A stretch of 32,000 nucleotides of DNA from an uncultured bacterium (GTDB lineage: Bacteria > Margulisbacteria > WOR-1 > CAVSGV01). Positions 12,039 to 32,000 of the stretch are shown piece after piece. The position numbers were made by a program, and so were the translations under genes. The stretch lies in assembly GCA_963699255.1 (NCBI GenBank), contig OY969425.1, forward strand, positions 720,001-752,000, written 5' to 3'. The first letter of the stretch is position 1. The number at the start of each line of letters is the position of its first letter. The notes under the pieces were generated by a model that saw nothing but the letters and a program-made list of their open reading frames with translations, was not told the origin of the DNA and ran no database searches.

Positions 12039-12042
12039 ATCA

Positions 12043-12869: not shown

Positions 12870-12898
12870 TTGTTGGTTAGCCTTATATGTGTTAAAAT
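12870..12898 (+). promoter_or_regulatory. Promoter: -35-like TTGTTG (12870-12875), 17-nt spacer, extended -10 TGtTAAAAT (12890-12898), 7 nt upstream of larC ATG
   Basis: TTGTTGgttagccttatatgTGtTAAAATatgatccATG, with no SD. Confidence 0.45.
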
Positions 12899-12905
12899 AT
12901 GATCC

Positions 12906-14084: not shown

Positions 14085-14111
14085 CGTGTGACATCCTGTT
14101 CCCTTAAGAAG

Positions 14112-15251
14112 CTAATCCAGCACTACCAGTTTCCCGCTCCCGATGACACTGTCGCCCGAGATTATCTTGTAAATATACATGCCGTTACCGGCGACTTCGC
14201 CGCCGAGAGACCTTCCGTCCCAGTTCACCTGGTTCGTCCCGCCCCTGCCCCCGTTCGTGCCGGAGCTGAACCTCATCCTCTTTACTTCCTGTCCCGTTAT
14301 GTCATATATGATTATTGTGGTCGCCGCGTCCCTGGACAGCGTATATTGAATGGTCGTAGTAACACCTGACAGAGGACTGAACGGATTGGGATAATTATAT
14401 ATCCCTCCCACGACCTGGACCGCCCCGCTTAATATCTTGGCTTCCATCGTGATGTCGCGGGCCTCAGCGTTTATGTTCTCCAGATGAAAAGCTAACAGAC
14501 GCTTCTGATGGGAACTCGGTATTACCTTGAAGTTGGTCAGCCATGTCCCGTACACAGGGCTTCCGGAAATGAGGCTTAACGGGGGGTAAACGGGAATATT
14601 GTCAACGCTCAACACTACGGAAGTAACCCCAACCCCTACTTCGCTGGATATGACAGCTTCCAGGCTTACGTTCGATGATATTATGTCTCCCGACCTGAAC
14701 ACCACGCCGTTTATCCTTACCGATACTATCGACATGACCAGAGCCTGGGCTTCCGGCGTAAAAATGTTTGACACTTCAAAAGAAGGAACCGCCCATTCTA
14801 ACGGCATGGGAGGGTCACCCGCGTCAAGTGTTGAAGAAAGCTGGGAATCGCCGTAATAGCTGGATGATTCGACATTGGGGCCGTTCCATGCCCTCACGTA
14901 GATATGGCTTCCATCGATCAGGGATTGGCTGCCCGCGAAATCCCTGATGAACGCGCCGTCGCCAATCCCGCCCTCCCCTACGGATCCCGTCCATATGATA
15001 GAATCTCCGCCTGTCGGCACGCCGGTCTGGCCCGGAGCATGGATCGTCTCTTCTGACGCATAAATGACCTGGATAACTTCTCCGGTAGGCATCTTGGCGC
15101 CGTCATTGTCATATATTGCCTGGTTCGTCCCGTCCATCAGAACATCAATGGTTACCGCTTCCGCCTGCTGCGGAACGATCAATGACCAGATCCCAATGAC
15201 AAATAAACCCCCGATAACAAACAAACAATTTACAAATTTGTCATATGTCAT
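14112..15251 (-). CDS. Secreted protein: N-terminal YVRAW-type domain, central Ig-like region, C-terminal FlgD-Ig / T9SS type A-like sorting domain
   Basis: I prefer the start at ATG 15251, with SD AGGAGA 7 nt upstream, over the ORF-track start 15344. Signal peptide MTYDKFVNCLFVIGGLFVIGIWSLIVPQQAEA. The C-terminal 94 aa (NYPNPFSP...IIIYDITGQEV...VNWDGRS...GMYIYKI) match the FlgD_ig/Por_Secre_tail pattern. Confidence 0.75.
   Translation of the reverse strand: MTYDKFVNCLFVIGGLFVIGIWSLIVPQQAEAVTIDVLMDGTNQAIYDNDGAKMPTGEVIQVIYASEETIHAPGQTGVPTGGDSIIWTGSVGEGGIGDGAFIRDFAGSQSLIDGSHIYVRAWNGPNVESSSYYGDSQLSSTLDAGDPPMPLEWAVPSFEVSNIFTPEAQALVMSIVSVRINGVVFRSGDIISSNVSLEAVISSEVGVGVTSVVLSVDNIPVYPPLSLISGSPVYGTWLTNFKVIPSSHQKRLLAFHLENINAEARDITMEAKILSGAVQVVGGIYNYPNPFSPLSGVTTTIQYTLSRDAATTIIIYDITGQEVKRMRFSSGTNGGRGGTNQVNWDGRSLGGEVAGNGMYIYKIISGDSVIGSGKLVVLD
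14115..14396 (-). other. FlgD-Ig / T9SS type A-like C-terminal domain
   Basis: NYPNPFSPLSGVTTTIQYTLSRDAATTIIIYDITGQEVKRMRF...VNWDGRSLGGEVAGNGMYIYKIISGD...KLVVLD. Confidence 0.7.
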
Positions 15252-15351
15252 TTTTGATCTCCTTGTCATTTGTCCCGCCACCTTATTATTAATATCTAAT
15301 GTGTTACGGGATCCCGCTCTGCGGGAATATTTGAAATTGGTCATTCCATTC

Positions 15352-16932: not shown

Positions 16933-19900
16933 TCAGGGTTTTGGATAAACCCAATCCACATCTCCCGCACTGTTCTTTATGACCCAGTATCCTCTTCCAG
17001 GCTCAAACGTCGTTAACGCCCCGCTCCAGCTCCCGCCGGAGTATATCGCGGGCTTCCATGTATTGTTGATATAACCCCACACCTTGTCAGATGAAGTTAA
17101 ATAACTGCTCAGGTTCGTCTGCGCCATCGTTCGCGTCGTGTTATATGCCGTGCCCACAAGATTAGCCTTTTGACCCTTTAAGGCTATCGTTCGATCTGTC
17201 CCCGATAAATTACCTGTGACCTCCACCGTTACAGCGCTGTTAACCTTTATCCAGTAACCCTTATCCGCTTCTATCGAAGTCAACGACCCTTTCCATGTCC
17301 CGTCATAATACGCTATTCTCCACCCGCTAGATGGCGAATAGGAATATATATATGCTGTTAACCCCGCCAGCTGATCCCCTATTACGCTGCTGATGGATGT
17401 ATCTTCCGGTATCACAGGCAGTGAGAACAGATTGAATCCAGCAGCCAGAGGCATCTTCAATCCAGGCGGCGTTATCGTGAGACTGAACTGCTTGTCATTT
17501 ACGACCGGCTGGCTGTCCCCAACCTCCACAGTGAACGTCTGGATCTCGAATGTAGACGGTGTCCCATGCAGCAAGCCGCTGGTTTCCAGCGTCAACCCAA
17601 GCGGCAGGCTCCCGCTTTTTAAGGACCACGTATATGGGGCCACTCCGCCCGTCGCGACAAGTGTCATATTATATGCGGAACCCTCCATCCCGTCCGGCAG
17701 CTGAGACGCCGTCGTGATTATCAACGGGTTTATCGCCGATGCCGTATATCCCGTATAATGGTAGCCCATGTCAACTGTCCCTGAATCGCCGTTCACTCCG
17801 TTCGGGTTGGTCCCATATCCATGCACATAGTCGAGTCCAAGGTCGGAAGCCTCGCCGGTACCCTTATCAATGCACTCCGAAGTAGTGAGAAGATACACAT
17901 TTCCTTTTGGCCCGCTGGCAAACAGCGGCTCCGAGCTGATATTGCCTGTACCCGTGTAGCCGTTCTGAATATCTGAATAGGTTACTGTTGGAGTGGAAGT
18001 GGCATCGTTGGAGATGCTTACTCCGGAAGTTTGATAATATATGATCGAGTTCTTGATCGTCGGGGAGCAGTTTTCGTCATAGATCCCGCCGCCGCTGTGC
18101 GCTTCCGCACTATTTAAAGTTAATGTGCAGTTTATGATGGTTGCGGGGCAATTATTGTTATAAATACCGCCGCCTTCGCTGGTCGCACTATTTGAAATAA
18201 AAGTACAGTTTTTGATCGTCGGAGAGCAGGGGTTGTAGTTATATAATGCGCCGCCGCCAAAGACACTTGTCGCGCTATTTGAAGTAAAGGTGCAGCTTTC
18301 AATGGTTGCGGACGCATAGTTGTTAACTATCGCTCCACCATAACCCCCGATATTTAAAGTAAAGGTACAGTTCGAGACTTCCGGGGAGGCGGCCCAATTA
18401 TACATACAGCCGCCGCCGTCCTGGCTGTATGTTCTATTTGATGTAAAGGTGCAGTTCGTGATGATAGAAGGTGTATTGGTGCCGGTGGTATTATAGTTAT
18501 ATATTGCGCCGCCGAAATCTCCGCTGTTCGACGCAAAGGAACAATTTGAAACCGTTGCGGTAGCATTGGAGTTATAAATCGCTCCGCCCTCGCTGGTCGC
18601 GCAATTTGAAGTAAAGTTGCAGTTCTTAATTATCGGGGAGGCAGTGGTAATATTATATATCCCGCCTCCGCCGGTACTCTTATTGCTGACAGTTGTTGAC
18701 TTATTTGAAGTAAAGGTGCAGTTTGTAATGGTCGGAGCGGAGCTGTTGTTAACTATCCCTCCGCCGCTACCCCCGGCACTGTTTGACTCAAAGGTGCAGT
18801 ATGAGATGAACGGAGACGAGCTGGCCCAGTTACGCATCCCGCCGGCGTTGCTTGTGGTCGCCCTATTTGAAGTAAAGGTGCAGTTCATTATGGTCGGGGA
18901 GGAACCGCTGTTATCCATCCCGGCAGCTACTGTCGCAACATTTGTAGTAAAGGCGCAGTACATGATGGTTGGGGAGGATCCGGTGAAGTCAGCCATCCCG
19001 CCGCCGCCTGATGCGAGGTTTAAATTAAAGGTGCAGTATATGACTTCGGGGGATGAGGTCAAGCAGTAGATCCCGCCGCCTTCGATCGTCGCATTATTGG
19101 AAGTAAACGCGCAGTTCGTTATGGTCGGAGAAGAGCTGGTAAGATAAAGCCCGCCGCCGTTGCCGGTCATATAACCCTTTTTAATCGTGAAATTCTCAAT
19201 AGTGGTGGGGGAACTAAGATTGGATCCATACATGCACTGGACCTTGCCCTCTCCGGATATTATGGTAGTGGTGGCGTCGCCGGTCGGGCTCCAATTACCG
19301 TCAAACCCTCCTTTTAAATATGTCCCGCTGTCCAGGGTAATGGTTTGTGTCAGGTGATAGACTCCCATCCTCACAAAGATAGCGTCACTGGTTACCGCGA
19401 CAGTCTCGGCGCTGTTGATCGTCTTGAACGGATCTGTCGGACTTCCGCTCCCGGGTCCCGCAACTCCGGCATCAACATACCAGTAATTATTGAAGTGTCC
19501 ATACGGCCCGGAGTCCAGGGTCGTCGGATTAGCTATGTTATCTCCATTGAAACTCTTTAGATGCAGATACCAGCCGTCGGTTGGCGCTTCCAATGTCAAA
19601 AGGCCGCTGCTCCAAGTGGTGCCCCCTCCTCCCCACGTCTCGGTCGCGCTCTGGGTCCATGTATATTGATAATACTGCACTCCTCCGGGTCCGAAGGCAG
19701 GCATGCTGGTGAATGTGCATGTTGTCCCGATCTTATTTGATGTCACATTGGGAGGAACAGCCCATGTATATTTCGCGTCAGTGGTCGATGGCAGAGATTC
19801 TCCGCCGTCGTTATATGAATGAACATGACGGGTATACTGGGTGTTGGCGGTCAATCCGCTCTCCACGGTGGTGTAGATCCCGGCACCTATGAGAGCTTCC

Positions 19901-22900
19901 AGACTTGAATAAGAATTATGCAAGCTATATCCTATTTCCCCAACTACGTTACTAGCCCATGACCAATGGATAGTAGAAACAGATTCTGCGGTGCCGAGGA
20001 AACCTGACGGCGCATCAGGATAAGCAACTCCACCTGTATATCCGGTATAATGATAGCCCATATCCACTATCCCGGTATCGCCTTTTGTCATATCCGTGTT
20101 GGTCCCACAACCCTCCGTCGATCCCAGCCCAATGGTGTTGGCGTCGCCGGAGCCGGAATTGGTGCATGGAGAGTAATCTAAAAGATGCACATCACCACCC
20201 GCCGCATTCACAAAGAGCGCATCCGCGCTGATATTGCCGGTCCCCGGGTAGCCCCCCTGAATGCAGGAGTAGGTTACCTCCGGAGTAGAAACGGCATCAT
20301 TAGAGATGTTCCCTCCAGAAGTTTGATAATATACAATCGAGTTCTTGATCTTTGGAGAGGCCGATGAGTAAGCATATATCCCGCCGCCATTCGCAGAACT
20401 ATTTGAAGTAAAAGTGCAGTTTGAAATGATCGGAGCGGAGGAGCTGAAATTCTGAATTCCACCGCCGTAAACAGACCCGCTGTTGAGAGTGAAAATACAG
20501 TTCGTAATGGTTGGAGAAGCAGCGATATTGAAAATTCCGCCGCCGGAACCACTTGTCGCACTATTTGAAATGAAAGAGCAATTTGAAATGCTTGGGGAAG
20601 AATTGCTGTTATATATACCGCCGCCGGACCCATTGGCCTTATTTGAAGTAAAAGCGCAGTTTGAAATCGCCGGGGTATCTAAAATGTTATAGATCCCGCC
20701 GCCATTATTACTTGCGTTGTTCGAAGTAAAAGCACAACTTGAAATGAGCGGATAAGATGAAGTGTAGTTGAATATTCCACTGCCATTGACCGCACTATTG
20801 AAAGTAAAGGCGCAGTTTAATATCTTTGGAGAAGATGTCGCGTTATACATTCCCCCACCGCCGTAGGAAGTGCTTTTTGCCTCATTCGAAGTGAATATAC
20901 AGCTGATTATCCTCGGAGAAGAATTGTTTAGATAAAGCCCCGCGCCGGCATCCGCGCTGCCGCTGCGAACGGTAAAATATTCAACAGTAGTTGCAGAACT
21001 AAGATAGGACCCATACATGCATCCGACTGTGGCATCTCCGGATATTACGGTAGTTGTGGCGTCGCCGGTTGAATTCCAATTACCATCAAATCCTCCTCTT
21101 AAATATGTCCCGCTGTCAAGAGTGATTGTGGATGTAAGACGATATACCCCCATCCTCACATAGATAGCTTCGCCGGTAACCGCTTTCGCCTCGGCACTGT
21201 TGATCGTTTTAAATGGATCTAATTGAGTGCCGCTCCCGGGTCCCGCAACTCCGGCATCCACATACCAGTACTTATTGAAAGGCCCGTACGGCCCGGAGTC
21301 CAGGGTCGTCGGATTGGCTATGTTATCTCCATTGAAACTCTTTAGATGCAGATACCAGCCGTCGGTTGGCGCTTCCAATGTCAAAAGGCCGCTGCTCCAA
21401 GTGGTGCTCCCTCCTCCCCAGGTCTCGGTTGCGCTCTGGGTCCATGTATATTGATAATACTGCACTCCTCCGGGTCCGAAGGCAGGCATGCTGGTGAATG
21501 TGCATGTTGTCCCGATCTTATTTGATGTCACATTGGGAGGAACAGCCAACGTATATTTCGCGTCAGTGGTCGACGGCAGTGACTCTCCGCCGTCGTTATA
21601 TGAATGAACATGACGGCTATACTGGGTGTTGGCGGTCAAACCGCTCTCCAGCGTTCCGGTAGCGTCAACCGTGGCAAGGCATATCAAATTGTGGTTGGCA
21701 TCATGCAGAGAATACCCTATCTCATCTATCACACTGCTGCTATCCCACGACCACTGGATTTGTGAAGTAGATTCAGCGGTGCCCAGGAAGCTTTCCGGCG
21801 TAGCAGGACAGGAAACCCCCGATAAATATCCGGAATAATGGTAGCCCATGTCCACGATCCCGGTATCGCCGTAGGCTTCATTAGTGTTGGTACCGAAACC
21901 CTCCAGCGAACTTAAGCCAAGAACATGGGCGTCGCCGCTTCCGGAATTGGTGCAGGGAGAGTAATCTAAAAGCCGCAGATTTGTGGGCGCGTTCACAAAG
22001 AGCGAATCAGCGCTGATATTTCCTGTCCCCGAATAGCCGCCTTGAATGCAAGAATAGGTTATAGCTGGGGAAGATCCGTTGCTGTTCCTTATGACGTTTA
22101 ATGATCCGGAATTCCCATAAATGATCGAGTTTAAAATATTCGGGGAGCAGTAGTTCGCATTACAGATCGCGCTGCCGTCGATGCCTGAGATGTTTGAATT
22201 AATGGTGCAGTTTGAAATGGTTGGGGAGGAATATAGGGTGTTATATATCCCGCCGCCGTACTGAGTGGCCTCATTTGAAGTAAAGGCGCAATTTGTAATG
22301 GTTGGGAAGGTAGGGTAGTTAGAGGCGGCAGAGCCATAGAACCCGCCGCCGTCAACTGCAACATTTGAAGTATAGGTGCAGTTTGAAATGTGCAGGGTGC
22401 TTAGGTAGGCGTTATACATCCCGCCGCCGTACTGAGTGGCCTCATTTGAAGTAAAGGTACAGTTTGAAATGGTTGGGGAGGTATGGTAGTTAGAGGCGGC
22501 ATTGCTATAGAACCCACCGCCGTCAACTGCAATATTTAAAGTAAAGGCGCAGTTTGAAATGGTTGAGGATGAGTAGTTGCTGATCCCGCCGCCATAGCTT
22601 GCAACGTTTGAAATAAAGGCGCTGTTCGAGATGATCGAGACGGAGGTGACGTTATATATCCCGCCGCCATAACCGGCTTCTGAGCTGTTTGAGGAAAATG
22701 TACAGCTTTCTATGGTCGGGCTGGAGTAGGTTTCGTTATATATCCCGCCGCCGCCGGATGTCGCGTCACATGAAGTAAAGGTGCAGCCAAAGATTCTCCG
22801 GAGAAGAGGTGTGGTTGAATATCCCTCCCCCATAGCCGTTGATCGAGCTGTTTGTTGTAAAACCGCAATTTGAGATGTTCGGGGAGGCACTTGCGTCATA

Positions 22901-23070
22901 TATCCCCCCTCCGTAACCGGTATTAGACTTATTTGAATGAAAAGTACAGCCGGAAATGGTCGGGGAAACACCGTTATTATATATCCCGCCGCCGTAACTC
23001 GTTGTGCTATTTGACTCAAAGGTGCAGTTTGAAATGTTCGGGGTGGAGGAGACAGTGTTGAATACTGCAC
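16933..23070 (-). CDS. Giant repetitive beta-helix surface protein, C-terminal segment (ORF 3 of 3; genuine frame begins near 22795)
   Basis: From ...IFGCTFTSCDATSGGGGIYNE onward the ORF is Pmp-like coils, caps, and FN3 plus beta-sandwich spacers. It ends with a He_PIG Ig domain and a 176-aa tail domain. The first roughly 90 codons of the ORF-track translation are an out-of-frame reading of the upstream segment. Confidence 0.85.
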   Translation of the reverse strand: MQYSTLSPPPRTFQTAPLSQIAQRVTAAGYIITVFPRPFPAVLFIQISLIPVTEGGYMTQVPPRTSQIAVLQQTARSTAMGEGYSTTPLLRRIFGCTFTSCDATSGGGGIYNETYSSPTIESCTFSSNSSEAGYGGGIYNVTSVSIISNSAFISNVASYGGGISNYSSSTISNCAFTLNIAVDGGGFYSNAASNYHTSPTISNCTFTSNEATQYGGGMYNAYLSTLHISNCTYTSNVAVDGGGFYGSAASNYPTFPTITNCAFTSNEATQYGGGIYNTLYSSPTISNCTINSNISGIDGSAICNANYCSPNILNSIIYGNSGSLNVIRNSNGSSPAITYSCIQGGYSGTGNISADSLFVNAPTNLRLLDYSPCTNSGSGDAHVLGLSSLEGFGTNTNEAYGDTGIVDMGYHYSGYLSGVSCPATPESFLGTAESTSQIQWSWDSSSVIDEIGYSLHDANHNLICLATVDATGTLESGLTANTQYSRHVHSYNDGGESLPSTTDAKYTLAVPPNVTSNKIGTTCTFTSMPAFGPGGVQYYQYTWTQSATETWGGGSTTWSSGLLTLEAPTDGWYLHLKSFNGDNIANPTTLDSGPYGPFNKYWYVDAGVAGPGSGTQLDPFKTINSAEAKAVTGEAIYVRMGVYRLTSTITLDSGTYLRGGFDGNWNSTGDATTTVISGDATVGCMYGSYLSSATTVEYFTVRSGSADAGAGLYLNNSSPRIISCIFTSNEAKSTSYGGGGMYNATSSPKILNCAFTFNSAVNGSGIFNYTSSYPLISSCAFTSNNASNNGGGIYNILDTPAISNCAFTSNKANGSGGGIYNSNSSPSISNCSFISNSATSGSGGGIFNIAASPTITNCIFTLNSGSVYGGGIQNFSSSAPIISNCTFTSNSSANGGGIYAYSSASPKIKNSIVYYQTSGGNISNDAVSTPEVTYSCIQGGYPGTGNISADALFVNAAGGDVHLLDYSPCTNSGSGDANTIGLGSTEGCGTNTDMTKGDTGIVDMGYHYTGYTGGVAYPDAPSGFLGTAESVSTIHWSWASNVVGEIGYSLHNSYSSLEALIGAGIYTTVESGLTANTQYTRHVHSYNDGGESLPSTTDAKYTWAVPPNVTSNKIGTTCTFTSMPAFGPGGVQYYQYTWTQSATETWGGGGTTWSSGLLTLEAPTDGWYLHLKSFNGDNIANPTTLDSGPYGHFNNYWYVDAGVAGPGSGSPTDPFKTINSAETVAVTSDAIFVRMGVYHLTQTITLDSGTYLKGGFDGNWSPTGDATTTIISGEGKVQCMYGSNLSSPTTIENFTIKKGYMTGNGGGLYLTSSSPTITNCAFTSNNATIEGGGIYCLTSSPEVIYCTFNLNLASGGGGMADFTGSSPTIMYCAFTTNVATVAAGMDNSGSSPTIMNCTFTSNRATTSNAGGMRNWASSSPFISYCTFESNSAGGSGGGIVNNSSAPTITNCTFTSNKSTTVSNKSTGGGGIYNITTASPIIKNCNFTSNCATSEGGAIYNSNATATVSNCSFASNSGDFGGAIYNYNTTGTNTPSIITNCTFTSNRTYSQDGGGCMYNWAASPEVSNCTFTLNIGGYGGAIVNNYASATIESCTFTSNSATSVFGGGALYNYNPCSPTIKNCTFISNSATSEGGGIYNNNCPATIINCTLTLNSAEAHSGGGIYDENCSPTIKNSIIYYQTSGVSISNDATSTPTVTYSDIQNGYTGTGNISSEPLFASGPKGNVYLLTTSECIDKGTGEASDLGLDYVHGYGTNPNGVNGDSGTVDMGYHYTGYTASAINPLIITTASQLPDGMEGSAYNMTLVATGGVAPYTWSLKSGSLPLGLTLETSGLLHGTPSTFEIQTFTVEVGDSQPVVNDKQFSLTITPPGLKMPLAAGFNLFSLPVIPEDTSISSVIGDQLAGLTAYIYSYSPSSGWRIAYYDGTWKGSLTSIEADKGYWIKVNSAVTVEVTGNLSGTDRTIALKGQKANLVGTAYNTTRTMAQTNLSSYLTSSDKVWGYINNTWKPAIYSGGSWSGALTTFEPGRGYWVIKNSAGDVDWVYPKP
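16936..17463 (-). other. Unassigned 176-aa C-terminal tail domain of the giant protein (GFNLFSLP ... EPGRGYWVIKNSAGDVDWVYPKP)
   Basis: It carries an internal duplication (GTWKGSLTSIEADKGYWIKVNSA and GGSWSGALTTFEPGRGYWVIKNSA). Its final part is homologous to the C-terminus of the 518-aa protein. Confidence 0.6.
17464..17733 (-). other. He_PIG-type putative Ig domain within the giant protein
   Basis: LPDGMEGSAYNMTLVATGGVAPYTWSLKSGSLPLGLTLETSGLLHGTPSTFEIQTFTVEVGD matches the classic LPxGxxGxxY...atGG..PytW....G.LP.GL.L....G.l.GtP pattern (PF05345 expected). Confidence 0.8.
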
Positions 23071-26000
23071 CGCCTCCGGCTCCGGCGCTGTTCGAAGTGA
23101 ACGTGCAGTTTGAAATGGTCGGGGAAGAGGAGTTGTTGTTCCCTATCCCGCCGCCGCGGCCGGTGGACGCGTTATTTGCGGTATTTGAATTAAAAGTACA
23201 GTTTGAAATGGCCGGGGAAGCGTATCCGTTCCATATCGCGCCGCCGCCAAAAGTTGTGGTGCTGTTCGATCCAAAGGCACAAGATAAGAAGGTCGGGGAG
23301 GCGTAGTTGTTATATATCGCGCCGCCATAATTCGCGCTGGTATTTGAAGTAAAGGTGCAGTTTAAGACCTCCGGGGTAGAGTTGTGGCAATACATCGCGC
23401 CACCGCCCTGTCCGCTCGCGTTATTGAAACTAAAGGCGCAGTTCGTGATGGTCGGGGAGGAACTCTCAAGAGAAAGTCCGCCGCCATTGCCGGTAGTATA
23501 ACCTTTCTTTATGGTAAAGCCTTCGATCGTAGTAGCAGAACTAAGTCCGGTTCCATACAAACACTGGACTATGGCGTCCCCGGATATTATGGTAGTTGAG
23601 GCGTCACCGGTTGAACTCCAGTTACCGTCAAAACCTCCTTTTAAGTATGTCCCGCTATCCAGAGTAATTGTGGCCGTTAGTCGATATACTCCCATCCTCA
23701 CATAGATAGCTTCTCCGCTGGATGCTTTTGCCTCAGCGCTGTTGATCGTCTTGAACGGATCCGACGGAGTACCGGTTCCCGGACCGGCAACGCCGGCATC
23801 AACATACCAGTAATTATTGAAAGGCCCGTACGGCCCGGAGTCCAGGGTGGTCGGATTGGCTATGTTATCTCCGTTATAGCTCTTAAGATGCAGATACCAG
23901 CCGTCCGTTGGAGCTTCCAATGTCAAAAGGCCGCTGCTCCATGTGGTGCTCCCTCCTCCCCACGTCTCGGTCGCGCTCTGGGTCCATGTCCATTGATAGT
24001 ACTGCACTCCTCCGGGACCTACAGCCCCAAAAGTAGGCACACTGGTGAATGTGAACGACGTACCAACTTTATTATATGTGACACTGGGAGGGAGCGCCCA
24101 AGTGTATTTCGCGTCAGTGTTCGATGGCAGAGATTCTCCGCCGTCGTTATACGCATGCACGTGACGGCTGCACAGCGTATTGGCTGTCAATCCAGCCTCT
24201 TTGGTGGTGGTTGCGTCAGCTGCCTCGAGAACTTTCAAATTGTGATAATCATCATGCACAGAATATCCGATCTCGCCCGCCACATCGCTCCATGTCCATT
24301 GAATTTCTGAAGTTGAGCTTGCAGTGCCGCTGAATGTTGCCGGCGCGGCGGGACAGGGAACCCCGGATGAATATCCGGTGTAATGGTAACCCATATCCAC
24401 TATCCCGGTATCACCGTGAGTAGTATCCGGGTTTGTTCCATAACCCTCCAGCGATCCCAGCCCGAGCAAGTGGGCGTCGCCGGTCCCGGAATTTGTGCAC
24501 GGGGAATAATCTAAAAGATGCACATTCCCGGCCGGACCATTAACAAATTGCGGCTCCCCGCTGATATTGCCTGTCGCGGCAATTAACGGCTGGACACAGG
24601 AATATGTCACGATCGGATTAGAAGAGCTGATATTATAAATATTACCAGCATTAAGGGCGGCGCATGAATTTTTGCAAATGATCGAATTGGTTATCACAGG
24701 GGAACACGAGCCGAAATTATAGATCCCGCCGCCGTAACTCGTGGCGCTGTTTGAAGTTAAGGTGCAATTTGATATAGACGGGGAAGAATTACCTTCATCG
24801 TATATCGCGCCTCCGTTCACCGCGCTGTTCAAGGCGAAAGCGCAGTTGGAAATGACCGGTGAGCAGGACCCGTTGTTATATATACCGCCGCCATAATAAC
24901 CAGTCGAGCTGTTTGAAGTAAAGACGCAATTTATTATTACCGGGCAAGAAATAGACATGTCACAGATGCCGCCTCCGGCGGCCGCGCTGTTTGAAGTAAA
25001 GATGCAATTCATCACTTCCGGAGAAGAATAACTGTTAAATATGGCGCCGCCTGAGTTGCTCCCAATATTAGAAGTAAAGGTGCAGCTTGATATTATTGGA
25101 GAGGCTTTGTCGTTATAAATTCCGCCGCCCTGGTAAACATTATTTGAGGCGAAAAGACAATTCAAAATGAGCGGAGAAGTTTGAACATTATAGATCCCGC
25201 CCCCATAGCCATTATTCGTGTTATTTGTAAAGGCACAACCTGATATCTGCGGAGAGGAGTATAAGATATATATCCCGTTGCCGTTGCCACTTGCCTTATT
25301 TGAAGTAAAAGTACAATTAATTATGGATGCAGAGGACGAAATAAGATAAAGTCCTCCGCCACTGCCTGCGATAAAACCATTCTTTATAGTAAAGCCTTCA
25401 ACCGTAGTGGCGGAGCTAAGATTTTTCCCATACATGCACTGGACTATGGCATCTCCGGATATTATGGTAGTTGTGGCATCACCGGTTGAACTCCAGTTAC
25501 CGTCAAAGCCTCCTCTTAAATATGTCCCGCTATCGAGAGTAATGGTTTGGGTCAGATGATATACTCCCATCCTCACATAGATAGCTTCACCGCTGGATGC
25601 TTTCGCCTCAGCGCTGTTGATCGTTTTAAATGGATCCGAAGGAGTACCGGTTCCCGGCCCCGCAACTCCGGCATCAACATACCAGTAATTATTGAATGGC
25701 CCATACGGCCCGGAGTCCAGCGTGGTCGGATTTGCGATCCCATCACCGTTAAAGCTCTTAACATGCAAATACCAGCCGTCCGTTGGAGCTTCCAAAGTCA
25801 AAAGGCCGCTGCTCCAAGTTGTGCTCCCTCCTCCCCACGTCTCGGTCGCGCTCTGGGTCCATGTCCATTGATAATATTGCACTCCTCCGGGACCTACAGC
25901 CCCAAAAGTAGGCACGCTTGTGAATGTGAATGTGGTTCCGACTTTACTGGATGTCACATTGGGAGGAACAGCCCATGTATATTTCGCGTCAGTGGCCGAT

Positions 26001-28888
26001 GGCAGGGATTCTCCGCCGTCGTTATAAGCATGAACGTGACGGACGCATAGCGTATTTGCGGTCAACCCGCCCTCTTTGGTGGTGGTGACATTAGCTGTCG
26101 CCAGAACTTTTAAGTTGTGATCATAATCATGAACAGCATAGCCGATCTCGTCCGCCACATCGCTCCACGTCCATTGAATTTCTGAGGTTGAGTTCGCAGT
26201 GCCGATGAAAGTTGCTGGCACATCGGGATAGGCAATTCCGCCTGTATATCCGGAATAATGGTAACCCATATCCACTATCCCGGTATCCCCCTTAGTCGCG
26301 TCCGTATTTGTCCCATATCCCTCAAGCGAACTCAGGCCAAGTATATGTGCGTCGCCGGAGCCGGAATTGGTGCAGGGAGAATAATCTAAAAGATGCACAT
26401 CACCACCCGCCGCATTCACAAAGAGCGCATCCGCGCTGATATTCCCTGTCCCCGTCCAGCCACCCTGAATGCAGGAATAGGACACCTCCGGAGTAGAAAG
26501 GCCATCTGCAGAGTACATGCTTCCTCCAGAAATTTGATTGTATATGATCGAGTTTTTGATCTTTGGACAGGAGGAGGTGCAGTTATATATTCCACCAGTA
26601 TTACCCCATGCCTTATTTAAAGTAAAAGTACAGCTTAAGATGATCGGGGAAGAATTGGGCCAGTTACATATCCCGCCGCCGTTGCCGCTGCCATTCATTG
26701 CACTGTTTGAAGTAAAAGCACAGTTTGAAATAGTTGGGGAAGAGTAGCTATTGAACATCCCGCCACCACACCAGTTATTTGCATTATTTGAAGTAAAGGT
26801 GCAGTTTGAAATTTCGGGGGAAGAGTAGCTATTGTATATCCCGCCACCACCCTGAGGCGCACTATTTGACTTAAAAGTGCAGTTTGAAATGATCGGATAG
26901 GATTGAGTGTTGCCTATCCCGCCGCCGAAATATGCGCTGTTTGACTCAAAAGTACAGTTCGAAATAGTTGGGGAAGAGAAGTTATTGAATATCCCTCCGC
27001 CCAACCAGTTATTTGCACTGTTAAAAGTAAAGGCGCAGCCTAATATCTCCGGAGTGGAGAAGTGGCAATACATCCCGCCGCCGCCGTAGCTCGCGCTACT
27101 TGCCCTATTAAAAGTAAAGATGCAGTTATTGATGGTCGGGGAGGAACTCTCAAGAGAAAGCCCGCCGCCAGATTCGGCACTGCCATTTCGTATGGTTAAG
27201 CACTCAATTGTTGTCGCAGTACTGAGTCCGGTCCCTCTCATGCACCGGACTATTGCGTCACCGGATATTGTCGTGGTTGTTGCATCTCCCGTTGGACTCC
27301 AGTTACCGTCAAAGCCTCCTCTTAAATATGTTCCGCTGTCAAGAGTAATGGTAGAAGTCAGATGATAGAGGCCCATCCTCACAAAGATAGCTTCACCGCT
27401 GGATGCTTTCGCCTCGGCGCTGTTGATCGTTTTAAATGGATCCAACGGAGTACCGGTTCCCGGCCCCGCAACACCGGCATCAACATACCAGTAATTATTG
27501 AAAGGCCCATACGGCCCGGAGTCCAGGGTGGTCGGATTGGCAATATCAGCACCGTTATAGCTCTTAAGATGCAGATACCAGCCGTCTGTTGGAGCTTCCA
27601 ATGTCAAAAGGCCGCTGCTCCATGTGGTGCCCCCTCCTCCCCACGTCTCGGTCGCGCTCTGGGTCCATGTATATTGATAGTACTTCACTCCTCCGGCACC
27701 GAAAGCAGGCACGCTTGTGAATGTGAATGTTGTCCCGACCTTATTTGATGTCACATTGGGAGGAAGCGCCCAAGTGTATTTCGCGTCAGTTGTTGAAGGC
27801 AGCGATTCTCCGCCGTCATTATATGCGTGGACATGGCGGCTATATCGGGTATTGGCGGCCAACCCGACCTCTTTGGTGGTGGTCGCGTCAGCAGTCGCCA
27901 GAACTTTTAAGTTGTGATAATCATCATGCACGGCATAGCCCAACTCATCCGCCACATCGCTCCATGTCCATTGAATTTCTGAAGTTGAGCTGGCAGCGCC
28001 GTTGAAAGTTGCCGGCGCGGCGGGACAGGGAACTCCGGATGTATATCCGGTGAAATGATATCCCATATCCACGATCCCGGTATCACCGTGAGTAGTATCC
28101 GGGTTTGTTCCATAACCCTCCGTTGATCCCAGCCCAATGGTGTTGGCGTCGCCGGAGCCGGAATTGGTGCATGGGGAGTAATCAAGAAGGTGCACATTTC
28201 CACCGGCGCCTCCACTCACAAAACACGCGTCCCCGCTGATATTGCCCTCCCCTGTCCAGCCACCCTGAACGCAGGAGTATGTTACCACCGGAGTAGAAGT
28301 GGCGTCATTGGAGATGCTTACCCCTAAAGTTTGATTATAAATGATCGAATTTTTGATTTGTGGGGAGGAAGATGAGTTACAGATCCCTCCGCCGCAGCCG
28401 GTGCCGCCTGCGCTATTTAAAGTAAAGGTGCAGTTTTTGATTGTTGGGTTGGAAGAAATGCCGTTATATATTCCGGCACCCTGGCCGCTGTATGAATTAC
28501 TATTTGAAGTAAAGATACAGTTATTTATATTTGGGGAGGAATTGCCGTTATATATCCCGCCGCCGGACCAGTCGGCTCTATTTGAAGTAAAAATACAGTT
28601 ATTTATATTTGGGGAGGAATTGCCGTTATATATCCCGCCACCGTAATTTGTACTATTTAAATTAAACCTGCAGTTTAGTATCGTTGGGGTGGAGTAATTG
28701 TTATTTATCCCGCCGCCATGGTCTGCGAAACTTGATTCAAAAGTGCAGTTTGAGATTCTCCGGAGTGGAGTAATTATTATATATTCCGCTGCCAGAATTT
28801 GCAGTAAAAATACATCTTGCGATGGTCGGGGACGATGAATTGTCATATATCGTGCTGTAGCCATACACGTTGAATGCAGTAAAGACAC
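22766..28888 (-). CDS. Giant repetitive beta-helix surface protein, middle segment (ORF 2 of 3; genuine frame begins near 28757)
   Basis: It becomes repeat-like at ...ISNCTFESSFADHGGGINNNYSTPTILNC. It has no plausible signal peptide or RBS of its own. It ends 9 codons after ...GGIFNHTSSPE, where the next segment's frame takes over. Confidence 0.85.
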   Translation of the reverse strand: MSLLHSTCMATARYMTIHRPRPSQDVFLLQILAAEYIIITPLRRISNCTFESSFADHGGGINNNYSTPTILNCRFNLNSTNYGGGIYNGNSSPNINNCIFTSNRADWSGGGIYNGNSSPNINNCIFTSNSNSYSGQGAGIYNGISSNPTIKNCTFTLNSAGGTGCGGGICNSSSSPQIKNSIIYNQTLGVSISNDATSTPVVTYSCVQGGWTGEGNISGDACFVSGGAGGNVHLLDYSPCTNSGSGDANTIGLGSTEGYGTNPDTTHGDTGIVDMGYHFTGYTSGVPCPAAPATFNGAASSTSEIQWTWSDVADELGYAVHDDYHNLKVLATADATTTKEVGLAANTRYSRHVHAYNDGGESLPSTTDAKYTWALPPNVTSNKVGTTFTFTSVPAFGAGGVKYYQYTWTQSATETWGGGGTTWSSGLLTLEAPTDGWYLHLKSYNGADIANPTTLDSGPYGPFNNYWYVDAGVAGPGTGTPLDPFKTINSAEAKASSGEAIFVRMGLYHLTSTITLDSGTYLRGGFDGNWSPTGDATTTTISGDAIVRCMRGTGLSTATTIECLTIRNGSAESGGGLSLESSSPTINNCIFTFNRASSASYGGGGMYCHFSTPEILGCAFTFNSANNWLGGGIFNNFSSPTISNCTFESNSAYFGGGIGNTQSYPIISNCTFKSNSAPQGGGGIYNSYSSPEISNCTFTSNNANNWCGGGMFNSYSSPTISNCAFTSNSAMNGSGNGGGICNWPNSSPIILSCTFTLNKAWGNTGGIYNCTSSCPKIKNSIIYNQISGGSMYSADGLSTPEVSYSCIQGGWTGTGNISADALFVNAAGGDVHLLDYSPCTNSGSGDAHILGLSSLEGYGTNTDATKGDTGIVDMGYHYSGYTGGIAYPDVPATFIGTANSTSEIQWTWSDVADEIGYAVHDYDHNLKVLATANVTTTKEGGLTANTLCVRHVHAYNDGGESLPSATDAKYTWAVPPNVTSSKVGTTFTFTSVPTFGAVGPGGVQYYQWTWTQSATETWGGGSTTWSSGLLTLEAPTDGWYLHVKSFNGDGIANPTTLDSGPYGPFNNYWYVDAGVAGPGTGTPSDPFKTINSAEAKASSGEAIYVRMGVYHLTQTITLDSGTYLRGGFDGNWSSTGDATTTIISGDAIVQCMYGKNLSSATTVEGFTIKNGFIAGSGGGLYLISSSASIINCTFTSNKASGNGNGIYILYSSPQISGCAFTNNTNNGYGGGIYNVQTSPLILNCLFASNNVYQGGGIYNDKASPIISSCTFTSNIGSNSGGAIFNSYSSPEVMNCIFTSNSAAAGGGICDMSISCPVIINCVFTSNSSTGYYGGGIYNNGSCSPVISNCAFALNSAVNGGAIYDEGNSSPSISNCTLTSNSATSYGGGIYNFGSCSPVITNSIICKNSCAALNAGNIYNISSSNPIVTYSCVQPLIAATGNISGEPQFVNGPAGNVHLLDYSPCTNSGTGDAHLLGLGSLEGYGTNPDTTHGDTGIVDMGYHYTGYSSGVPCPAAPATFSGTASSTSEIQWTWSDVAGEIGYSVHDDYHNLKVLEAADATTTKEAGLTANTLCSRHVHAYNDGGESLPSNTDAKYTWALPPSVTYNKVGTSFTFTSVPTFGAVGPGGVQYYQWTWTQSATETWGGGSTTWSSGLLTLEAPTDGWYLHLKSYNGDNIANPTTLDSGPYGPFNNYWYVDAGVAGPGTGTPSDPFKTINSAEAKASSGEAIYVRMGVYRLTATITLDSGTYLKGGFDGNWSSTGDASTTIISGDAIVQCLYGTGLSSATTIEGFTIKKGYTTGNGGGLSLESSSPTITNCAFSFNNASGQGGGAMYCHNSTPEVLNCTFTSNTSANYGGAIYNNYASPTFLSCAFGSNSTTTFGGGAIWNGYASPAISNCTFNSNTANNASTGRGGGIGNNNSSSPTISNCTFTSNSAGAGGGAVFNTVSSTPNISNCTFESNSTTSYGGGIYNNGVSPTISGCTFHSNKSNTGYGGGIYDASASPNISNCGFTTNSSINGYGGGIFNHTSSPENLWLHLYFM
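28501..28642 (-). repeat. Near-perfect tandem duplication of one 26-aa beta-helix coil (78-nt period)
   Basis: 28501-28564 and 28579-28642 differ at 2 of 64 nt. They encode GGGIYNGNSSPNINNCIFTSN twice. Confidence 0.9.
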
Positions 28889-31800
28889 AGTTTAAGATGG
28901 TCGGGTCGGATATATTAGTTAGATAAATCCCGGCGCCAATACCTTTGCCATTTCTTATGGTTAAATTCTCAATTGTGGTGGCGGAACTGAGTCCGGTTCC
29001 ATACATGCACTGGACAATGGCATCTCCTGATATTGTTGTGGTAGTTGCATCTCCAGTAGGGCTCCAATTACCGTCAAAGCCTCCTCTTAAATATGTCCCG
29101 GTGTCTAGAGTAATTGTGGATGTCAGATGATAGAGTCCCATCCTCACAAAGATAGCTTCACCGCTGGATGCTTTCGCCTCGGCGCTGTTGATCGTCTTGA
29201 ACGGATCTGACGGAGTCCCGGTTCCCGGTCCGGCAACACCGGCATCCACATACCAGATCGTGGAGACGTTTTGCGTATATCCGGAATAATGGTACCCCAT
29301 GTCCACGATCCCGGTATCGCCGTGAATGCCATCCGGGTTTGTCCCGTAACCCTGCTGCCATCCCAGATTAAGGTCTGAAGCCTGGCCTGTCCCGGCGTTT
29401 ACGCACTCCGAAGTCGGGAGAAGGTGCACATCAGCGGCCGGTCCGTTTACAAATAGCGGCTCCGCGCTGATATTGCCTGTACCCGGGTAGCCGTCCTCAA
29501 TGCAGGAGTAGATAACGGTTGGAGAAGAGCTGTCATCATAAATGTTCCCTCCTGAATTTCCATAAATGATCGAGTTTAAGATGATCGGTGAGGTGAAGGA
29601 GTTATATATTCCGCCGCCGCTGCTTGCACTATTTGAAGTAAAGGTGCAGTTTGAAATGATCGGGGCAGAGGAGCTGTCATCAAATATTCCGCCGCCGATG
29701 GCGCTTGTACTATTTGAAGCAAAAACGCAGTTTAAAATGGTCGGAGAAGCCGCAGAGAGATAAAGCCCTCCTCCACCATAGTCGCTGCTATTTAAAGTGA
29801 AGACGCAGTGCAAGATGGTTGGAGAGGAACTGCTGAGATAAAGCCCGCCGCCATAGTCGTAGCCATTATAGCCGTTCTGTATGGTAAAACATTCAATGGT
29901 CGTGTTTGAGCCAAGATCGTATCCATACATGCACGGGACATTTCCTTCTCCGGATATTATGGTGGTTGAGGCTTCGCCGGTCTGGTTCCAGTTATTGTCA
30001 TACCCTCCCCTCAGATATATGCCGTCATAAAGAGTGATGGTCCCCGGTCCGTATCCATTCTGGTATAGATAGTAGATCCCCCGCCTCACACGTATCTCAT
30101 CCCCGCTTGCCGCCGCCGCCTCAGCCAGATTGATCGTTCTAAATGGATCCCACTGGGTGCCGCTTCCCTGACCGGAAGCGGCCGCGTCTACATACCAGTA
30201 TGGATATGAATCGTAGGGCCCATAGTCCGCGGTGCCGCTGGCAACACCATCATGGTTAAAGCTCTTAACATGCAAATACCATCCCTCACCGGTAGCCAGT
30301 AAAGTTATGTTGCCGCTGCTCCATGTGCTCTCCCCGCCTCCCCAGGACTCGGTTGGGATCTGATCCCAGGTATACTTATAGTATTGAACCCCTCCCGCTC
30401 CAAAGACAGCTTCATTAGTAAAATTAAAAGATGCCGTATTGTATGGGAGACGGGTTTTTTGATAGGCGACCTCGGGAGAAAGAGAGAGGGTATATTTTGA
30501 ATAACTATTTGAAGGCGCCGAATCCCCGCCGTTGTTATAAGCATGGACATGCCGGGTATATTGGGTATTAGCGCTCAGTCCAGACTCCAGGCTTGCGGTA
30601 ACATCAGCTCCTGTAAGTCCTTTCAAATTCTGACTGTCATCATTAAGGCAATATCCATCCTCCCCCGCCACATCGCTCCATGACCACAAGATGGAAGAAG
30701 CGGATTCCACGGTGCCGATGAAGTTTGACGGCTGAGCAGGAGGACTGGCAGTTGCCTGCGAATACCCGGTGTAATGGTAACCCATGTCCACGATCCCGGT
30801 ATCGCCGTGAATGCCATCCTGGTTGGTTCCATAGCCCTGCTGCCATCCCAGACCAAGAGCTGAAGCGTCGCCGGTCCCGCCATTGACGCAGGGCGAGTAA
30901 TTATAAAGACGCACATTAGCGGGCGCGCCCACGAACTGCGGCTCCCCGCTGATATTCCCGGTCCCGGTGTAGCCGCCCTGGATACAGGAATAGGTAACAG
31001 TTGAACTGGATGAGGTTCTATTTGAGATGTTTCCTCCGGAAGCTTGATAATAAATGATACAGCTTTCGATGGTCGGGGCGGAAGAGGAATCGTTAAGTAT
31101 GGCGCCGCCGTTATGTGCGCTATTTGAATTAAAGGTGCAGTTTGAGATAGTTGGCGAGGATGAGACGTTATATATCCCGCCGCCGCCGTTATTGGAAAAA
31201 GATGATAAATTTGAAGTAAAGACGCAGTTTGAAATGGCTGGGGAGGAGGAGTCGTTAAGTATCCCGCCGCCGCTGCTTGCGCCATTTGAAGTAAAAGCGC
31301 AATTATTGATCGTTGGGAAGGAGTTGTAGTCAGATATCCCGCCGCCGCCCTGAACAGCTCCAACATTTGAAATAAAGGTGCAGTAATTGATCGTCGGTGA
31401 TGAGTTGTAGTTGGATATCCCGCCGCCATAATTATTTGCCTGATTTGAAGTAAAGACGCAATTTAATATGGTCGGGGAGGAACTCTCAAGAGAAAGACCC
31501 GCGCCATAGCCGGAGGTATAACCTTTTTTTATGGTGAGATCTTCAACGGTAGTAGCGGATGTAAGCCCGCTTCCGCTCATGCACCGGACGGTACCCTCTC
31601 CGGATATTATCGTCGCTGAGGCGTCAGTGGTTCGAACATCCCAATTGCTAAGGTCATAACCACCCATCAAATGGACGCCGCTTTTGAGAGTGATAGTGCC
31701 TGTGCCCGGAGCGTTCAGATGGTAGACTCCCTGCCTCACATGTATCTCTTCTGTGCCGGTGGCAGCCGCTTCGGCGCTGTTGATCGTTTTGAACGGATCA

Positions 31801-32000
31801 CCAATAGTCCCGCCTCCTGGACCGGTAACATTAGAATCAACATACAAGATGAGACCTGAAGGAGGCGCAGCAGCGCTTATGGTGAACACGCCGCTTTCCC
31901 CTGTCCCCAGGTTGTAATATGTATCCACCGCGTTCATCTTTATTTTGGCCGTGGTGGTAGGAACATCGGTGACTATCCAGGGATAGATCCCGTCATTATC
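28737..32000 (-). CDS. Giant repetitive beta-helix surface protein, N-proximal segment (5' end lies beyond the window)
   Basis: The frame stays open from ATG 31937 to position 32000 (DNDGIYPWIVTDVPTTTAKIK-MNAV...), so the gene starts outside the window. It contains modules 1-2 and the start of module 3, and stops 6 codons after ...IYNNYSTPE. Confidence 0.85.
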   Translation of the reverse strand, partial: DNDGIYPWIVTDVPTTTAKIKMNAVDTYYNLGTGESGVFTISAAAPPSGLILYVDSNVTGPGGGTIGDPFKTINSAEAAATGTEEIHVRQGVYHLNAPGTGTITLKSGVHLMGGYDLSNWDVRTTDASATIISGEGTVRCMSGSGLTSATTVEDLTIKKGYTSGYGAGLSLESSSPTILNCVFTSNQANNYGGGISNYNSSPTINYCTFISNVGAVQGGGGISDYNSFPTINNCAFTSNGASSGGGILNDSSSPAISNCVFTSNLSSFSNNGGGGIYNVSSSPTISNCTFNSNSAHNGGAILNDSSSAPTIESCIIYYQASGGNISNRTSSSSTVTYSCIQGGYTGTGNISGEPQFVGAPANVRLYNYSPCVNGGTGDASALGLGWQQGYGTNQDGIHGDTGIVDMGYHYTGYSQATASPPAQPSNFIGTVESASSILWSWSDVAGEDGYCLNDDSQNLKGLTGADVTASLESGLSANTQYTRHVHAYNNGGDSAPSNSYSKYTLSLSPEVAYQKTRLPYNTASFNFTNEAVFGAGGVQYYKYTWDQIPTESWGGGESTWSSGNITLLATGEGWYLHVKSFNHDGVASGTADYGPYDSYPYWYVDAAASGQGSGTQWDPFRTINLAEAAAASGDEIRVRRGIYYLYQNGYGPGTITLYDGIYLRGGYDNNWNQTGEASTTIISGEGNVPCMYGYDLGSNTTIECFTIQNGYNGYDYGGGLYLSSSSPTILHCVFTLNSSDYGGGGLYLSAASPTILNCVFASNSTSAIGGGIFDDSSSAPIISNCTFTSNSASSGGGIYNSFTSPIILNSIIYGNSGGNIYDDSSSPTVIYSCIEDGYPGTGNISAEPLFVNGPAADVHLLPTSECVNAGTGQASDLNLGWQQGYGTNPDGIHGDTGIVDMGYHYSGYTQNVSTIWYVDAGVAGPGTGTPSDPFKTINSAEAKASSGEAIFVRMGLYHLTSTITLDTGTYLRGGFDGNWSPTGDATTTTISGDAIVQCMYGTGLSSATTIENLTIRNGKGIGAGIYLTNISDPTILNCVFTAFNVYGYSTIYDNSSSPTIARCIFTANSGSGIYNNYSTPENLKLHF

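What the first reader, a model, noticed from the sequence alone, without database searches (positions are those of the whole stretch)
28737..28888. Frame junction 1 in the giant gene sits on the 13-mer CTCCGGAGAATCT, the same 13-mer as junction 2
Seen in sequence:
- The upstream frame is coil-like through ...GSGIYNNYSTPE, then reads NLKLHF and stops at 28737.
- The +1 frame becomes coil-like exactly at ISNCTFESSFADHGGGINN.
- The consensus coil is SSP-x-I-x-N-C, so the shift localises to CCG GAG A|ATC TCA (plus-strand 28753-28765 = agattctccggag).
- An in-frame paralogous coil at 27042-27054 reads CTCCGGAGATATT (STPEILGC), so the junction looks like one extra A in GAGA(A)TC.
- The second junction (22791-22803) carries the identical 13-mer, although the flanks beyond about 15 nt are divergent.

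Inference: two independent random indels landing on the same 13-mer is unlikely. The candidate explanations are as follows.
- A motif-specific sequencing or polishing error (the corrected sequence would contain GATC/AGATCT).
- Local gene conversion.
- Real pseudogenisation.
- Recoding. Against a programmed +1 shift: there is no slippery re-pairing (GAG to AGA or AAU to AUC do not pair) and no stop or rare codon in the A-site.
Basis: partly seen in the sequence, partly recalled or inferred. Interest (0 to 1): 0.65.

Follow-up and report, generated by a model that had tools for sequence, protein, structure and literature searches.

The report
Spurious extra base at methylation motif
The two frame breaks in this giant surface-protein gene are almost certainly assembly errors, one surplus base inside the restriction-site palindrome AGATCT, because the same lesion also splits the essential RNA polymerase gene rpoC and other ordinary genes of this genome.

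Summary
The giant beta-helix gene on the minus strand changes to the +1 frame twice, each time on CTCCGGAGAATCT. That 13-mer occurs nowhere else in the 1.77-Mb genome.

It is not peculiar to this gene. Removing one base turns each junction into AGATCT. The same AGA[A/T]TCT lesion breaks a paralogous giant gene twice, a fibre gene, two glycosyltransferases inside a single Pfam domain, and single-copy rpoC. All 12 relatives searched have rpoC in one frame.

The genome encodes a BstYI-like restriction enzyme (site RGATCY) next to an amino-methyltransferase, so AGATCT is probably methylated.

Evidence against recoding:
- 25 sites carry the same heptamer in the same codon phase and are read straight through.
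- No tRNA has an enlarged anticodon loop.
- The shared wider context (GGAGATCT) lies on the coding strand in some genes and on the template strand in others.
- Its orientation is constant only relative to the contig.

Gene conversion is not supported, because the flanks are unrelated.

The best reading is a motif-linked consensus insertion error of a long-read assembly (about 0.85). This is not a real biological feature, and interest is low.

The parts
28753..28765 (-). Junction 1: the 13-mer CTCCGGAGAATCT. The heptamer AGAATCT is at 28759..28753, and the surplus base is one of the two A at 28757-28756. Removing it gives CCG GAG ATC TCA (P-E-I-S) and restores AGATCT.
22791..22803 (-). Junction 2: the identical 13-mer. 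The heptamer AGAATCT is at 22797..22791, and the surplus A is one of 22795-22794. Removing it gives CCG GAG ATC TTT GGC TGC (P-E-I-F-G-C).
28737..32000 (-). First frame segment of the giant gene. It runs off the window; in the genome the open frame reaches G000:C1:755372, 2211 codons stop to stop. It has right-handed beta-helix repeats and fn3.
22766..28888 (-). Second frame segment (2040 codons), in the +1 frame relative to the first. It has beta-helix and fn3 modules. Its first ~45 codons are out-of-frame read-through of segment 1.
16933..23070 (-). Third frame segment (2045 codons), in the +1 frame relative to the second. It carries the C-terminal end of the gene.
27042..27054 (-). In-frame paralogous coil turn CTCCGGAGATATT (S-T-P-E-I-L). 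It has no AGATCT and no frame break.
31537..31542 (.). The only intact AGATCT inside this giant gene (G000:C1:751537).

Best explanation
Both frame junctions are consensus errors of the assembly. One spurious A/T has been written into the palindrome AGATCT, giving AGA[A/T]TCT, most often in the context GGAGATCT. In the cell the gene is most likely one uninterrupted reading frame of about 6,100 codons that encodes a giant beta-helix surface protein.

The inferred mechanism is as follows. The organism carries a BstYI-like restriction-modification system, so RGATCY sites, which include AGATCT, are methylated. In long-read (probably nanopore) data, modified bases disturb base calling. At a minority of sites, about 2% of AGATCT sites, the polished consensus keeps an insertion.

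Shown here:
- the lesion is motif-specific and genome-wide;
- it hits an essential single-copy gene that is intact in relatives;
- the restriction-modification genes are present.

Inferred, not shown:
- that the sites are methylated;
- that the reads were nanopore reads;
- that the reads lack a true extra base.
For: 1. Same lesion in unrelated genes. Each site below regains AGATCT and the family-typical protein sequence when one base is dropped.
- rpoC: CAG AT[T] CTC at G000:C1:1676689.
- A GT2 gene at 1662983 and a GT4 gene at 122299. In each, a single Pfam domain spans the break.
- A fibre gene at 826199.
- The paralogous giant gene at 573858 and 570046, plus AGAT[A]CT at 571033.

2. rpoC is single copy. 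It is contiguous in one frame of 1383-1424 codons in the relatives where the gene is complete, and unbroken across this point in all 12 relatives, five of them of the same family at 86-95% identity. Only this assembly splits it.

3. Statistics.
- AGAWTCT lies in 8 of 295 '+1' ORF-overlap windows, against 1.24 expected (p = 5e-5). The controls TGAWTCA, CGAWTCG, AGASTCT and YGAWTCR are not enriched.
- The junction-like rate is 5.7% for AGAWTCT, against 1.4% for all NGAWTCN.

4. The motif is special in this genome.
- A PF09195 endonuclease (70 bits; found in 0 of 14 control genomes) lies next to a PF01555 amino-methyltransferase.
- The endonuclease matches BstYI (1sdo, E = 8e-36) far better than BglII (E = 1e-4).
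- AGATCT is under-represented, observed/expected 0.68.

5. Context and orientation.
- Six of seven W-lesions checked for wider context (the GT4 lesion, found later, also lacks it) sit in GGAGATCT; 73 such sites are intact.
- All six have AGATCTCC on the contig's + strand. They lie on both replichores and in genes of both orientations.
- On the + strand, intact sites are balanced (36 against 37), but AGAWTCTCC outnumbers GGAGAWTCT 18 to 7.
- An orientation tied only to the arbitrary contig strand points to software, not biology.

6. An independent Logan assembly of run ERR10755942 matches window 2969-15627 with a single indel. That indel lies in a GGATCT (RGATCY) site.

7. Each segment stays open for about 2,000 codons after the break. 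This is expected for an intact gene and not for a decaying one.
Against: - No read pileup and no independent assembly of the junctions themselves could be obtained.
- The sequencing platform is not known to me.
- The error is not deterministic. 506 AGATCT sites are intact, including 10 intact CCGGAGATCT. All three broken CCGGAGATCT sites lie in giant genes, and I cannot fully explain this concentration.
- One paper I read describes modification-linked nanopore consensus errors mainly as mismatches, not insertions (PMC10687267).
- The Logan contig may derive from the same reads, so it is not a fully independent platform.
Confidence: 0.85

Rival explanations
1. The insertions are real mutations. 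AGATCT/RGATCY sites would be true indel hot spots, for example through self-restriction by the BstYI-like enzyme followed by inaccurate repair. The giant adhesin-like genes would tolerate them as fresh pseudogenes or as on/off variants in the population.
For: - The lesions are concentrated in dispensable giant genes: 5 broken against 11 intact AGATCT-type sites in the two paralogs.
- All three broken CCGGAGATCT sites are in giant genes, while 10 intact ones lie elsewhere.
- The restriction enzyme gene is present.
- A PolX gene lies in the window.
- A second assembly differs by one base at a GGATCT site, which could be real polymorphism.
Against: - The identical lesion splits single-copy essential rpoC, which is intact in all 12 relatives. 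It also splits two glycosyltransferases inside their catalytic domains.
- The lesion orientation follows the contig strand, not replication or transcription.
- BstYI-type cleavage leaves 4-nt GATC overhangs. From general knowledge, filling these in would add 4 bases, not 1.
- No other damage (nonsense codons, deletions) has accumulated in about 18 kb.
Confidence: 0.08
2. The breaks reflect programmed +1 recoding. Ribosomes would skip one base at GAG-A-AUC, stimulated by the Shine-Dalgarno-like GGAG, or a tRNA would read a four-base codon, so that the full-length protein is made from the sequence as written.
For: - The same 13-mer occurs at both junctions, in the same codon phase.
- GGAG lies directly upstream, as in prfB-type stimulators.
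- Long open frames follow each junction.
- The lesion also occurs in rpoC, which must be expressed.
- No tRNA-Asn gene was detected, and AAU is the 0-frame codon after GAG.
Against: - 25 AGAWTCT sites in the same phase (xAG AWT CTx) continue in frame in long ORFs. These include GAG AAT CTC, and CAG AAT CTG inside rpoC itself.
- An in-frame GAG AAT about 300 nt upstream of junction 1 must be read as triplets.
- The lesions occur in at least two codon phases. The GGAG context is on the template strand in rpoC and the GT2 gene.
- There is no re-pairing slippery codon and no stop or rare codon at the site.
- All 44 tRNAs have ordinary anticodon loops.
- Relatives lack the extra base in rpoC.
Confidence: 0.03
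3. One ancestral frameshift in a coil repeat was copied to the other coil by local gene conversion between paralogous repeats.
For: - The 13-mer is identical at both junctions.
- An 18-mer, CCGGAGAATCTCAAACTG, is shared between junction 1 and the paralogous gene.
Against: - Flanks outside about 12 nt are no more alike than chance, at 31-57%. The shared core simply encodes the conserved P-E-I-S-N-C turn.
- Variants with T instead of A (570046), and in a different domain (571033), need independent events.
- Unrelated genes carry the same lesion.
Confidence: 0.02

Closest known systems
Systematic, modification-linked consensus errors in Oxford Nanopore bacterial and metagenome assemblies (Wick et al. 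2019, PMC6591954; Chen et al. 2023 'Modpolish', PMC10687267; strand-specific mismatch at modified motifs, PMC11610603)
   Same: - The errors recur at one short motif.
- That motif is the predicted target of a methyltransferase encoded in the same genome.
- The errors are not removed by read consensus.
- They break otherwise conserved genes.
   Different: - The described cases are mostly substitutions. Here the lesion is a 1-nt insertion in the centre of a palindrome.
- Only about 2% of motif sites are affected.
- The platform and the methylation were not verified here.
prfB / antizyme / Ty-type programmed +1 ribosomal frameshifting
   Same: - One base must be skipped to make the full-length protein.
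- A GGAG lies just upstream at junctions 1-3.
   Different: - There is no stop or hungry codon and no re-pairing P-site codon.
- The identical heptamer is read in frame at 25 other places.
- The site is absent from orthologous rpoC genes of relatives.
BstYI (R^GATCY) / BglII (A^GATCT) type II restriction-modification systems
   Same: The genome's endonuclease matches PF09195 and BstYI structure 1sdo (E = 8e-36). It sits next to an SPPY-motif amino-methyltransferase. AGATCT is under-represented.
   Different: Specificity and methylation type are inferred from homology only. This system explains why the motif is special; it is not the finding itself.
Giant right-handed beta-helix (PbH1 / Chlamydia-PMP-like repeat) surface proteins of uncultured bacteria
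   Same: Pfam Beta_helix, Chlam_PMP and fn3 hits are arranged in about 620-residue modules repeated along roughly 6,100 codons.
   Different: No close ortholog exists in any collection searched; the best match is about 50% identity over parts. The function is unknown.

Membership tests
Motif-linked (methylation-associated) long-read consensus error | The same lesion recurs at one short sequence motif far more often than chance, in unrelated genes. | tested here: met
   - AGAWTCT lies in 8 '+1' junction windows against 1.24 expected, p = 5e-5, and controls are flat.
- Lesions were verified in rpoC, GT2, GT4, a fibre gene and two giant genes.
Motif-linked (methylation-associated) long-read consensus error | The genome encodes a methyltransferase expected to modify that motif. 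| tested here: met
   A BstYI-like endonuclease (PF09195, 70 bits; 1sdo E = 8e-36) lies adjacent to a PF01555 methyltransferase (200 bits). The methylation itself was not observed.
Motif-linked (methylation-associated) long-read consensus error | The lesion breaks essential, single-copy genes that are intact in close relatives. | tested here: met
   rpoC is single copy. It is split only in G000 and is contiguous in 12 of 12 relatives.
Motif-linked (methylation-associated) long-read consensus error | Accurate or unmodified-DNA reads lack the extra base; raw reads show partial, strand-biased insertions. | not testable with these tools
- No independent contig of the junctions was found.
Motif-linked (methylation-associated) long-read consensus error | The assembly derives from nanopore (or other modification-sensitive) reads. 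| not testable with these tools
   The platform is unknown. A single 1.77-Mb contig that includes repetitive giant genes of 18 and 28 kb suggests long reads.
Programmed +1 ribosomal frameshift | The shift site is conserved in orthologs. | tested here: not met
   Relatives' rpoC lacks the extra base. For the giant gene no orthologs exist to test.
Programmed +1 ribosomal frameshift | The shift signal acts wherever it occurs in the same phase, or is otherwise avoided in frame. | tested here: not met
   25 same-phase AGAWTCT sites lie inside continuing long ORFs.
Programmed +1 ribosomal frameshift | A slippery P-site codon together with a stop or rare A-site codon. | tested here: not met
   At GAG AAU C, neither GAG to AGA nor AAU to AUC re-pairs, and AAU is a common codon here (read from the sequence).
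Natural quadruplet decoding | A tRNA with an enlarged (8-nt) anticodon loop matching the four-base codon. | tested here: not met
   - ARAGORN and Rfam RF00005 find the same 44 ordinary tRNAs.
- Reading GAGA as one codon breaks the conserved TIENLTIRNG upstream.
Slipped-strand phase variation | The indel lies in a homopolymer or short tandem repeat tract. | tested here: not met
   The site is GAGAATCT, with no repeat tract. Only one of six junctions in the two paralogs lies at a homopolymer, a C5 run at G000:C1 ~579900.
Right-handed beta-helix repeat protein (the gene itself) | Pfam Beta_helix (PF13229) repeats above the cut-off. | tested here: met
   94, 157 and 156 bits in the three segments.

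The most novel reading that the evidence does not exclude
The extra base is really in the DNA. RGATCY/AGATCT sites of this bacterium would then be genuine +1 insertion hot spots created by its own BstYI-like restriction system. Alternatively, the cell would read AGA-W-TCT lesions through by an unknown, context-dependent +1 decoding that even rpoC depends on.
Probability: 0.05. Interest if true: 0.8.

Novelty: not a real feature. Interest (0 to 1): 0.1.

Why it matters
As biology it does not matter: the giant gene is most likely intact, and there is no recoding signal.

As a practical matter it is useful in three ways:
- In this genome every AGA[A/T]TCT, and probably other RGATCY+1 or RGATCY-1 sites, at a frame break should be treated as an assembly error. 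Several other apparent split genes, pseudogenes and recoding candidates in the same genome fall under this, including rpoC.
- The error signature itself points to the recognition site of the organism's restriction-modification system.
- The gene should be annotated as one protein of about 6,100 residues.

Tried and rejected
I therefore did not use read laying, whose run ids must come from that tool.
- Exact-pattern scan of metagenome contigs for junction 1, with or without the extra base: no match.
- Scan of genome contigs for CCGGAG(N)ATCTCAAACTG: 119 hits, all chance matches in unrelated taxa, none in a beta-helix context.
- Two protein searches with read-through peptides across junction 1 (219 and 611 aa): the best foreign hit was about 50% identical, so there is no second assembly of this locus.
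- Exact-protein look-ups of the neighbouring genes. Only one Logan contig was found, and it stops before the giant gene.
- DNA search in 40 relatives: no ortholog of the giant gene.
- A blanket GAGATC to GAGAATC conversion is rejected, because 1701 GAGATC and 506 AGATCT sites are intact.
- A deterministic 10-mer context is rejected, because 10 CCGGAGATCT sites are intact.
- Broad 'any insertion in RGATCY' sets show no enrichment. Only the central W insertion does.
- Homopolymer enrichment in junction windows is weak.
- I first misread the rpoC site as an ordinary gene boundary. I corrected this after an earlier scan note and my own check.
- ARAGORN at lowered thresholds gave only noise.
- A literature search for the run accession found nothing.
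Full report
**1. What is there**

The minus strand of the window carries one giant gene in three consecutive frames: 31937..28737, 28888..22766 and 23070..16933. The first frame is open beyond the window. In the genome the gene spans G000:C1:736933-755372, about 18.4 kb. All three segments are right-handed beta-helix repeats with fn3 modules.

Each junction is a +1 step, meaning one surplus base. Junction 1 reads CCG GAG (A)ATC TCA AAC TGC. Junction 2 reads CCG GAG (A)ATC TTT GGC TGC. Both lie on CTCCGGAGAATCT, which has no third copy in the window or in the 1.77-Mb single-contig genome.

**2. The lesion is not private to this gene**

A paralogous giant gene at G000:C1:565922-594471 is cut into five frames. 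Its junctions are:
- CCG GAG (A)ATC TCA AAC TGT;
- ATA GAG A(T)TC TCA AAC TGC;
- TCA GAT (A)CTT GGT;
- one C5 homopolymer.

In the two paralogs together, five of six junctions become AGATCT when one base is dropped.

Earlier notes of this scan pointed to the same lesion elsewhere in the genome. I checked these myself:
- rpoC is split at CAG AT(T) CTC, G000:C1:1676689. NADFDGDQMAVH lies in the upstream piece and GEPGTQLTMRTFHIGG in the downstream piece.
- rpoC is single copy.
- In all 12 relatives searched the gene is unbroken across this point, in open frames of 1383-1424 codons where complete. Only G000 matches in two pieces.
- A GT2 gene (1662983) and a GT4 gene (122299) are each broken at AGA(T)TCT inside one Pfam domain that spans the break.
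- A modular fibre gene is broken at GGA GAT (T)CT GAC.

That makes eight verified AGA[W]TCT lesions and one AGAT[A]CT lesion, against 506 intact AGATCT sites.

**3. Statistics**

Among 295 places where two long same-strand ORFs overlap in a +1 relation, 8 contain AGAWTCT, against 1.24 expected (p = 5e-5). TGAWTCA, CGAWTCG, AGASTCT and YGAWTCR are not enriched. With looser thresholds 5.7% of AGAWTCT sites look like junctions, against 1.4% of all NGAWTCN sites.

**4. Why AGATCT**

From the motif I predicted a BglII-type system and searched for one. The genome has a PF09195 endonuclease (70 bits; the family rings in 0 of 14 control genomes). It lies next to a PF01555 amino-methyltransferase with an SPPY motif.

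The endonuclease is much closer to BstYI (R^GATCY; 1sdo, E = 8e-36) than to BglII (E = 1e-4). AGATCT is under-represented, observed/expected 0.68. The motif is therefore very probably methylated in this organism. That inference rests on homology only.

**5. DNA-level artefact rather than translation-level signal**

- 25 AGAWTCT sites in the same codon phase as junction 1 lie inside long ORFs that simply continue. These include GAG AAT CTC, and CAG AAT CTG within rpoC.
- Reading GAGA as one codon breaks the conserved TIENLTIRNG about 300 nt upstream of junction 1.
- The lesions occur in at least two codon phases.
- ARAGORN and the Rfam tRNA model find the same 44 ordinary tRNAs.
- Six of seven W-lesions checked for wider context sit in GGAGATCT (the GT4 lesion, found later, also lacks it). 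That context is on the coding strand in the giant and fibre genes and on the template strand in rpoC and GT2.
- All six have AGATCTCC on the contig's + strand. They lie on both replichores (cumulative GC-skew extremes near 500 kb and 1430 kb) and in genes of both orientations.
- On the + strand, intact sites are balanced (36 against 37), while AGAWTCTCC outnumbers GGAGAWTCT 18 to 7.
- An orientation tied only to the arbitrary contig strand suggests consensus software. The numbers are small, so I treat this as supportive only.

**6. A second assembly**

A Logan contig of run ERR10755942 matches window 2969-15627 with one substitution and one indel. The indel is in a GGATCT (RGATCY) site at window 15188. 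There the window's version preserves a signal peptide and the Logan contig does not. RGATCY hexamers cover about 1% of that stretch, so this is a further hint that reads are indel-prone at the motif. The contig ends before the giant gene. No independent copy of either junction was found.

**7. Gene conversion**

Outside about 12 nt the four coil junctions are 31-57% identical, which is chance level. The similar core encodes the conserved P-E-I-S-N-C turn. In-frame paralogous turns use GAGATA, GAAATT or GAGATCA. Every turn that would read GAGATCT is broken.

**8. What remains unexplained**

- The error is not deterministic. Ten CCGGAGATCT sites elsewhere are intact, while the three in giant genes are broken.
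- The paper I read describes modification-linked nanopore errors mainly as mismatches (PMC10687267).
- Poorer polishing in strain-variable, internally repetitive genes is a plausible cause of the concentration, but I did not test it.
- Read pileups would settle the matter.

**9. Verdict**

The junctions are most likely consensus insertion errors at a methylated restriction site (about 0.85). The gene is most likely one intact ORF of about 6,100 codons. The scan has already reached the same conclusion for the rpoC and glycosyltransferase lesion in another window of this genome. This is not a real feature, and interest is low.

Noticed in passing
G000:C1:565922-594471 (outside the window; partly in L009): A second, paralogous giant beta-helix gene of about 28.5 kb is split into five frames. 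Three junctions are AGATCT+1 lesions (573858, 570046, 571033). One is a missing base at a C5 run (~579900).
   Followed up: yes
G000:C1:952993-954326 (L091, L092): A BstYI-like type II endonuclease (PF09195; closest structure 1sdo) lies next to an SPPY-motif amino-methyltransferase. The predicted site is RGATCY. AGATCT is under-represented in the genome, at 0.68 of expectation.
   Followed up: partly
whole genome G000: No tRNA-Asn (GUU) gene is found by ARAGORN at default settings or by the Rfam tRNA model; both give the same 44 tRNAs. Asn codons are abundant, so the gene is probably missing from the assembly or damaged in it.
   Followed up: partly
window 15188 (gene 14112-15344, minus strand): This is the only indel between the window and an independent Logan contig (ERR10755942) over 12.66 kb. 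It lies in GGGATC(T)GG. The window's version keeps the signal peptide MTYDKFVNCLFVIGGLFVIGIWSLIVPQQAEA.
   Followed up: yes
window 8435-10165 (+): A family X DNA polymerase (pol-beta-like HHH, palm and thumb domains plus a PHP domain), next to an MgsA/WRNIP-type AAA+ gene at 10671-12038.
   Followed up: no
G000:C1 573852, 742791, 748753, 826193, 1662983, 1676689: All six lesions in the GGAGATCT context have the same orientation (AGAWTCTCC) on the contig's + strand, whatever the gene strand or replichore. This suggests an orientation-dependent polishing artefact.
   Followed up: partly
G000:C1:424818 (minus strand): A further candidate lesion, GGG AGA TTC TGA. Dropping one base gives ...GPVKGDLIRDKNGKLMIMEVAPRFHG, which looks ATP-grasp-like. 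A 160-aa fragment had no Pfam hit.
   Followed up: partly
window 31937-32000 and beyond: The ATG at 31937, listed as the gene's start, is internal. The frame stays open to G000:C1:755372, so about 3.4 kb of the gene lie outside the window.
   Followed up: yes
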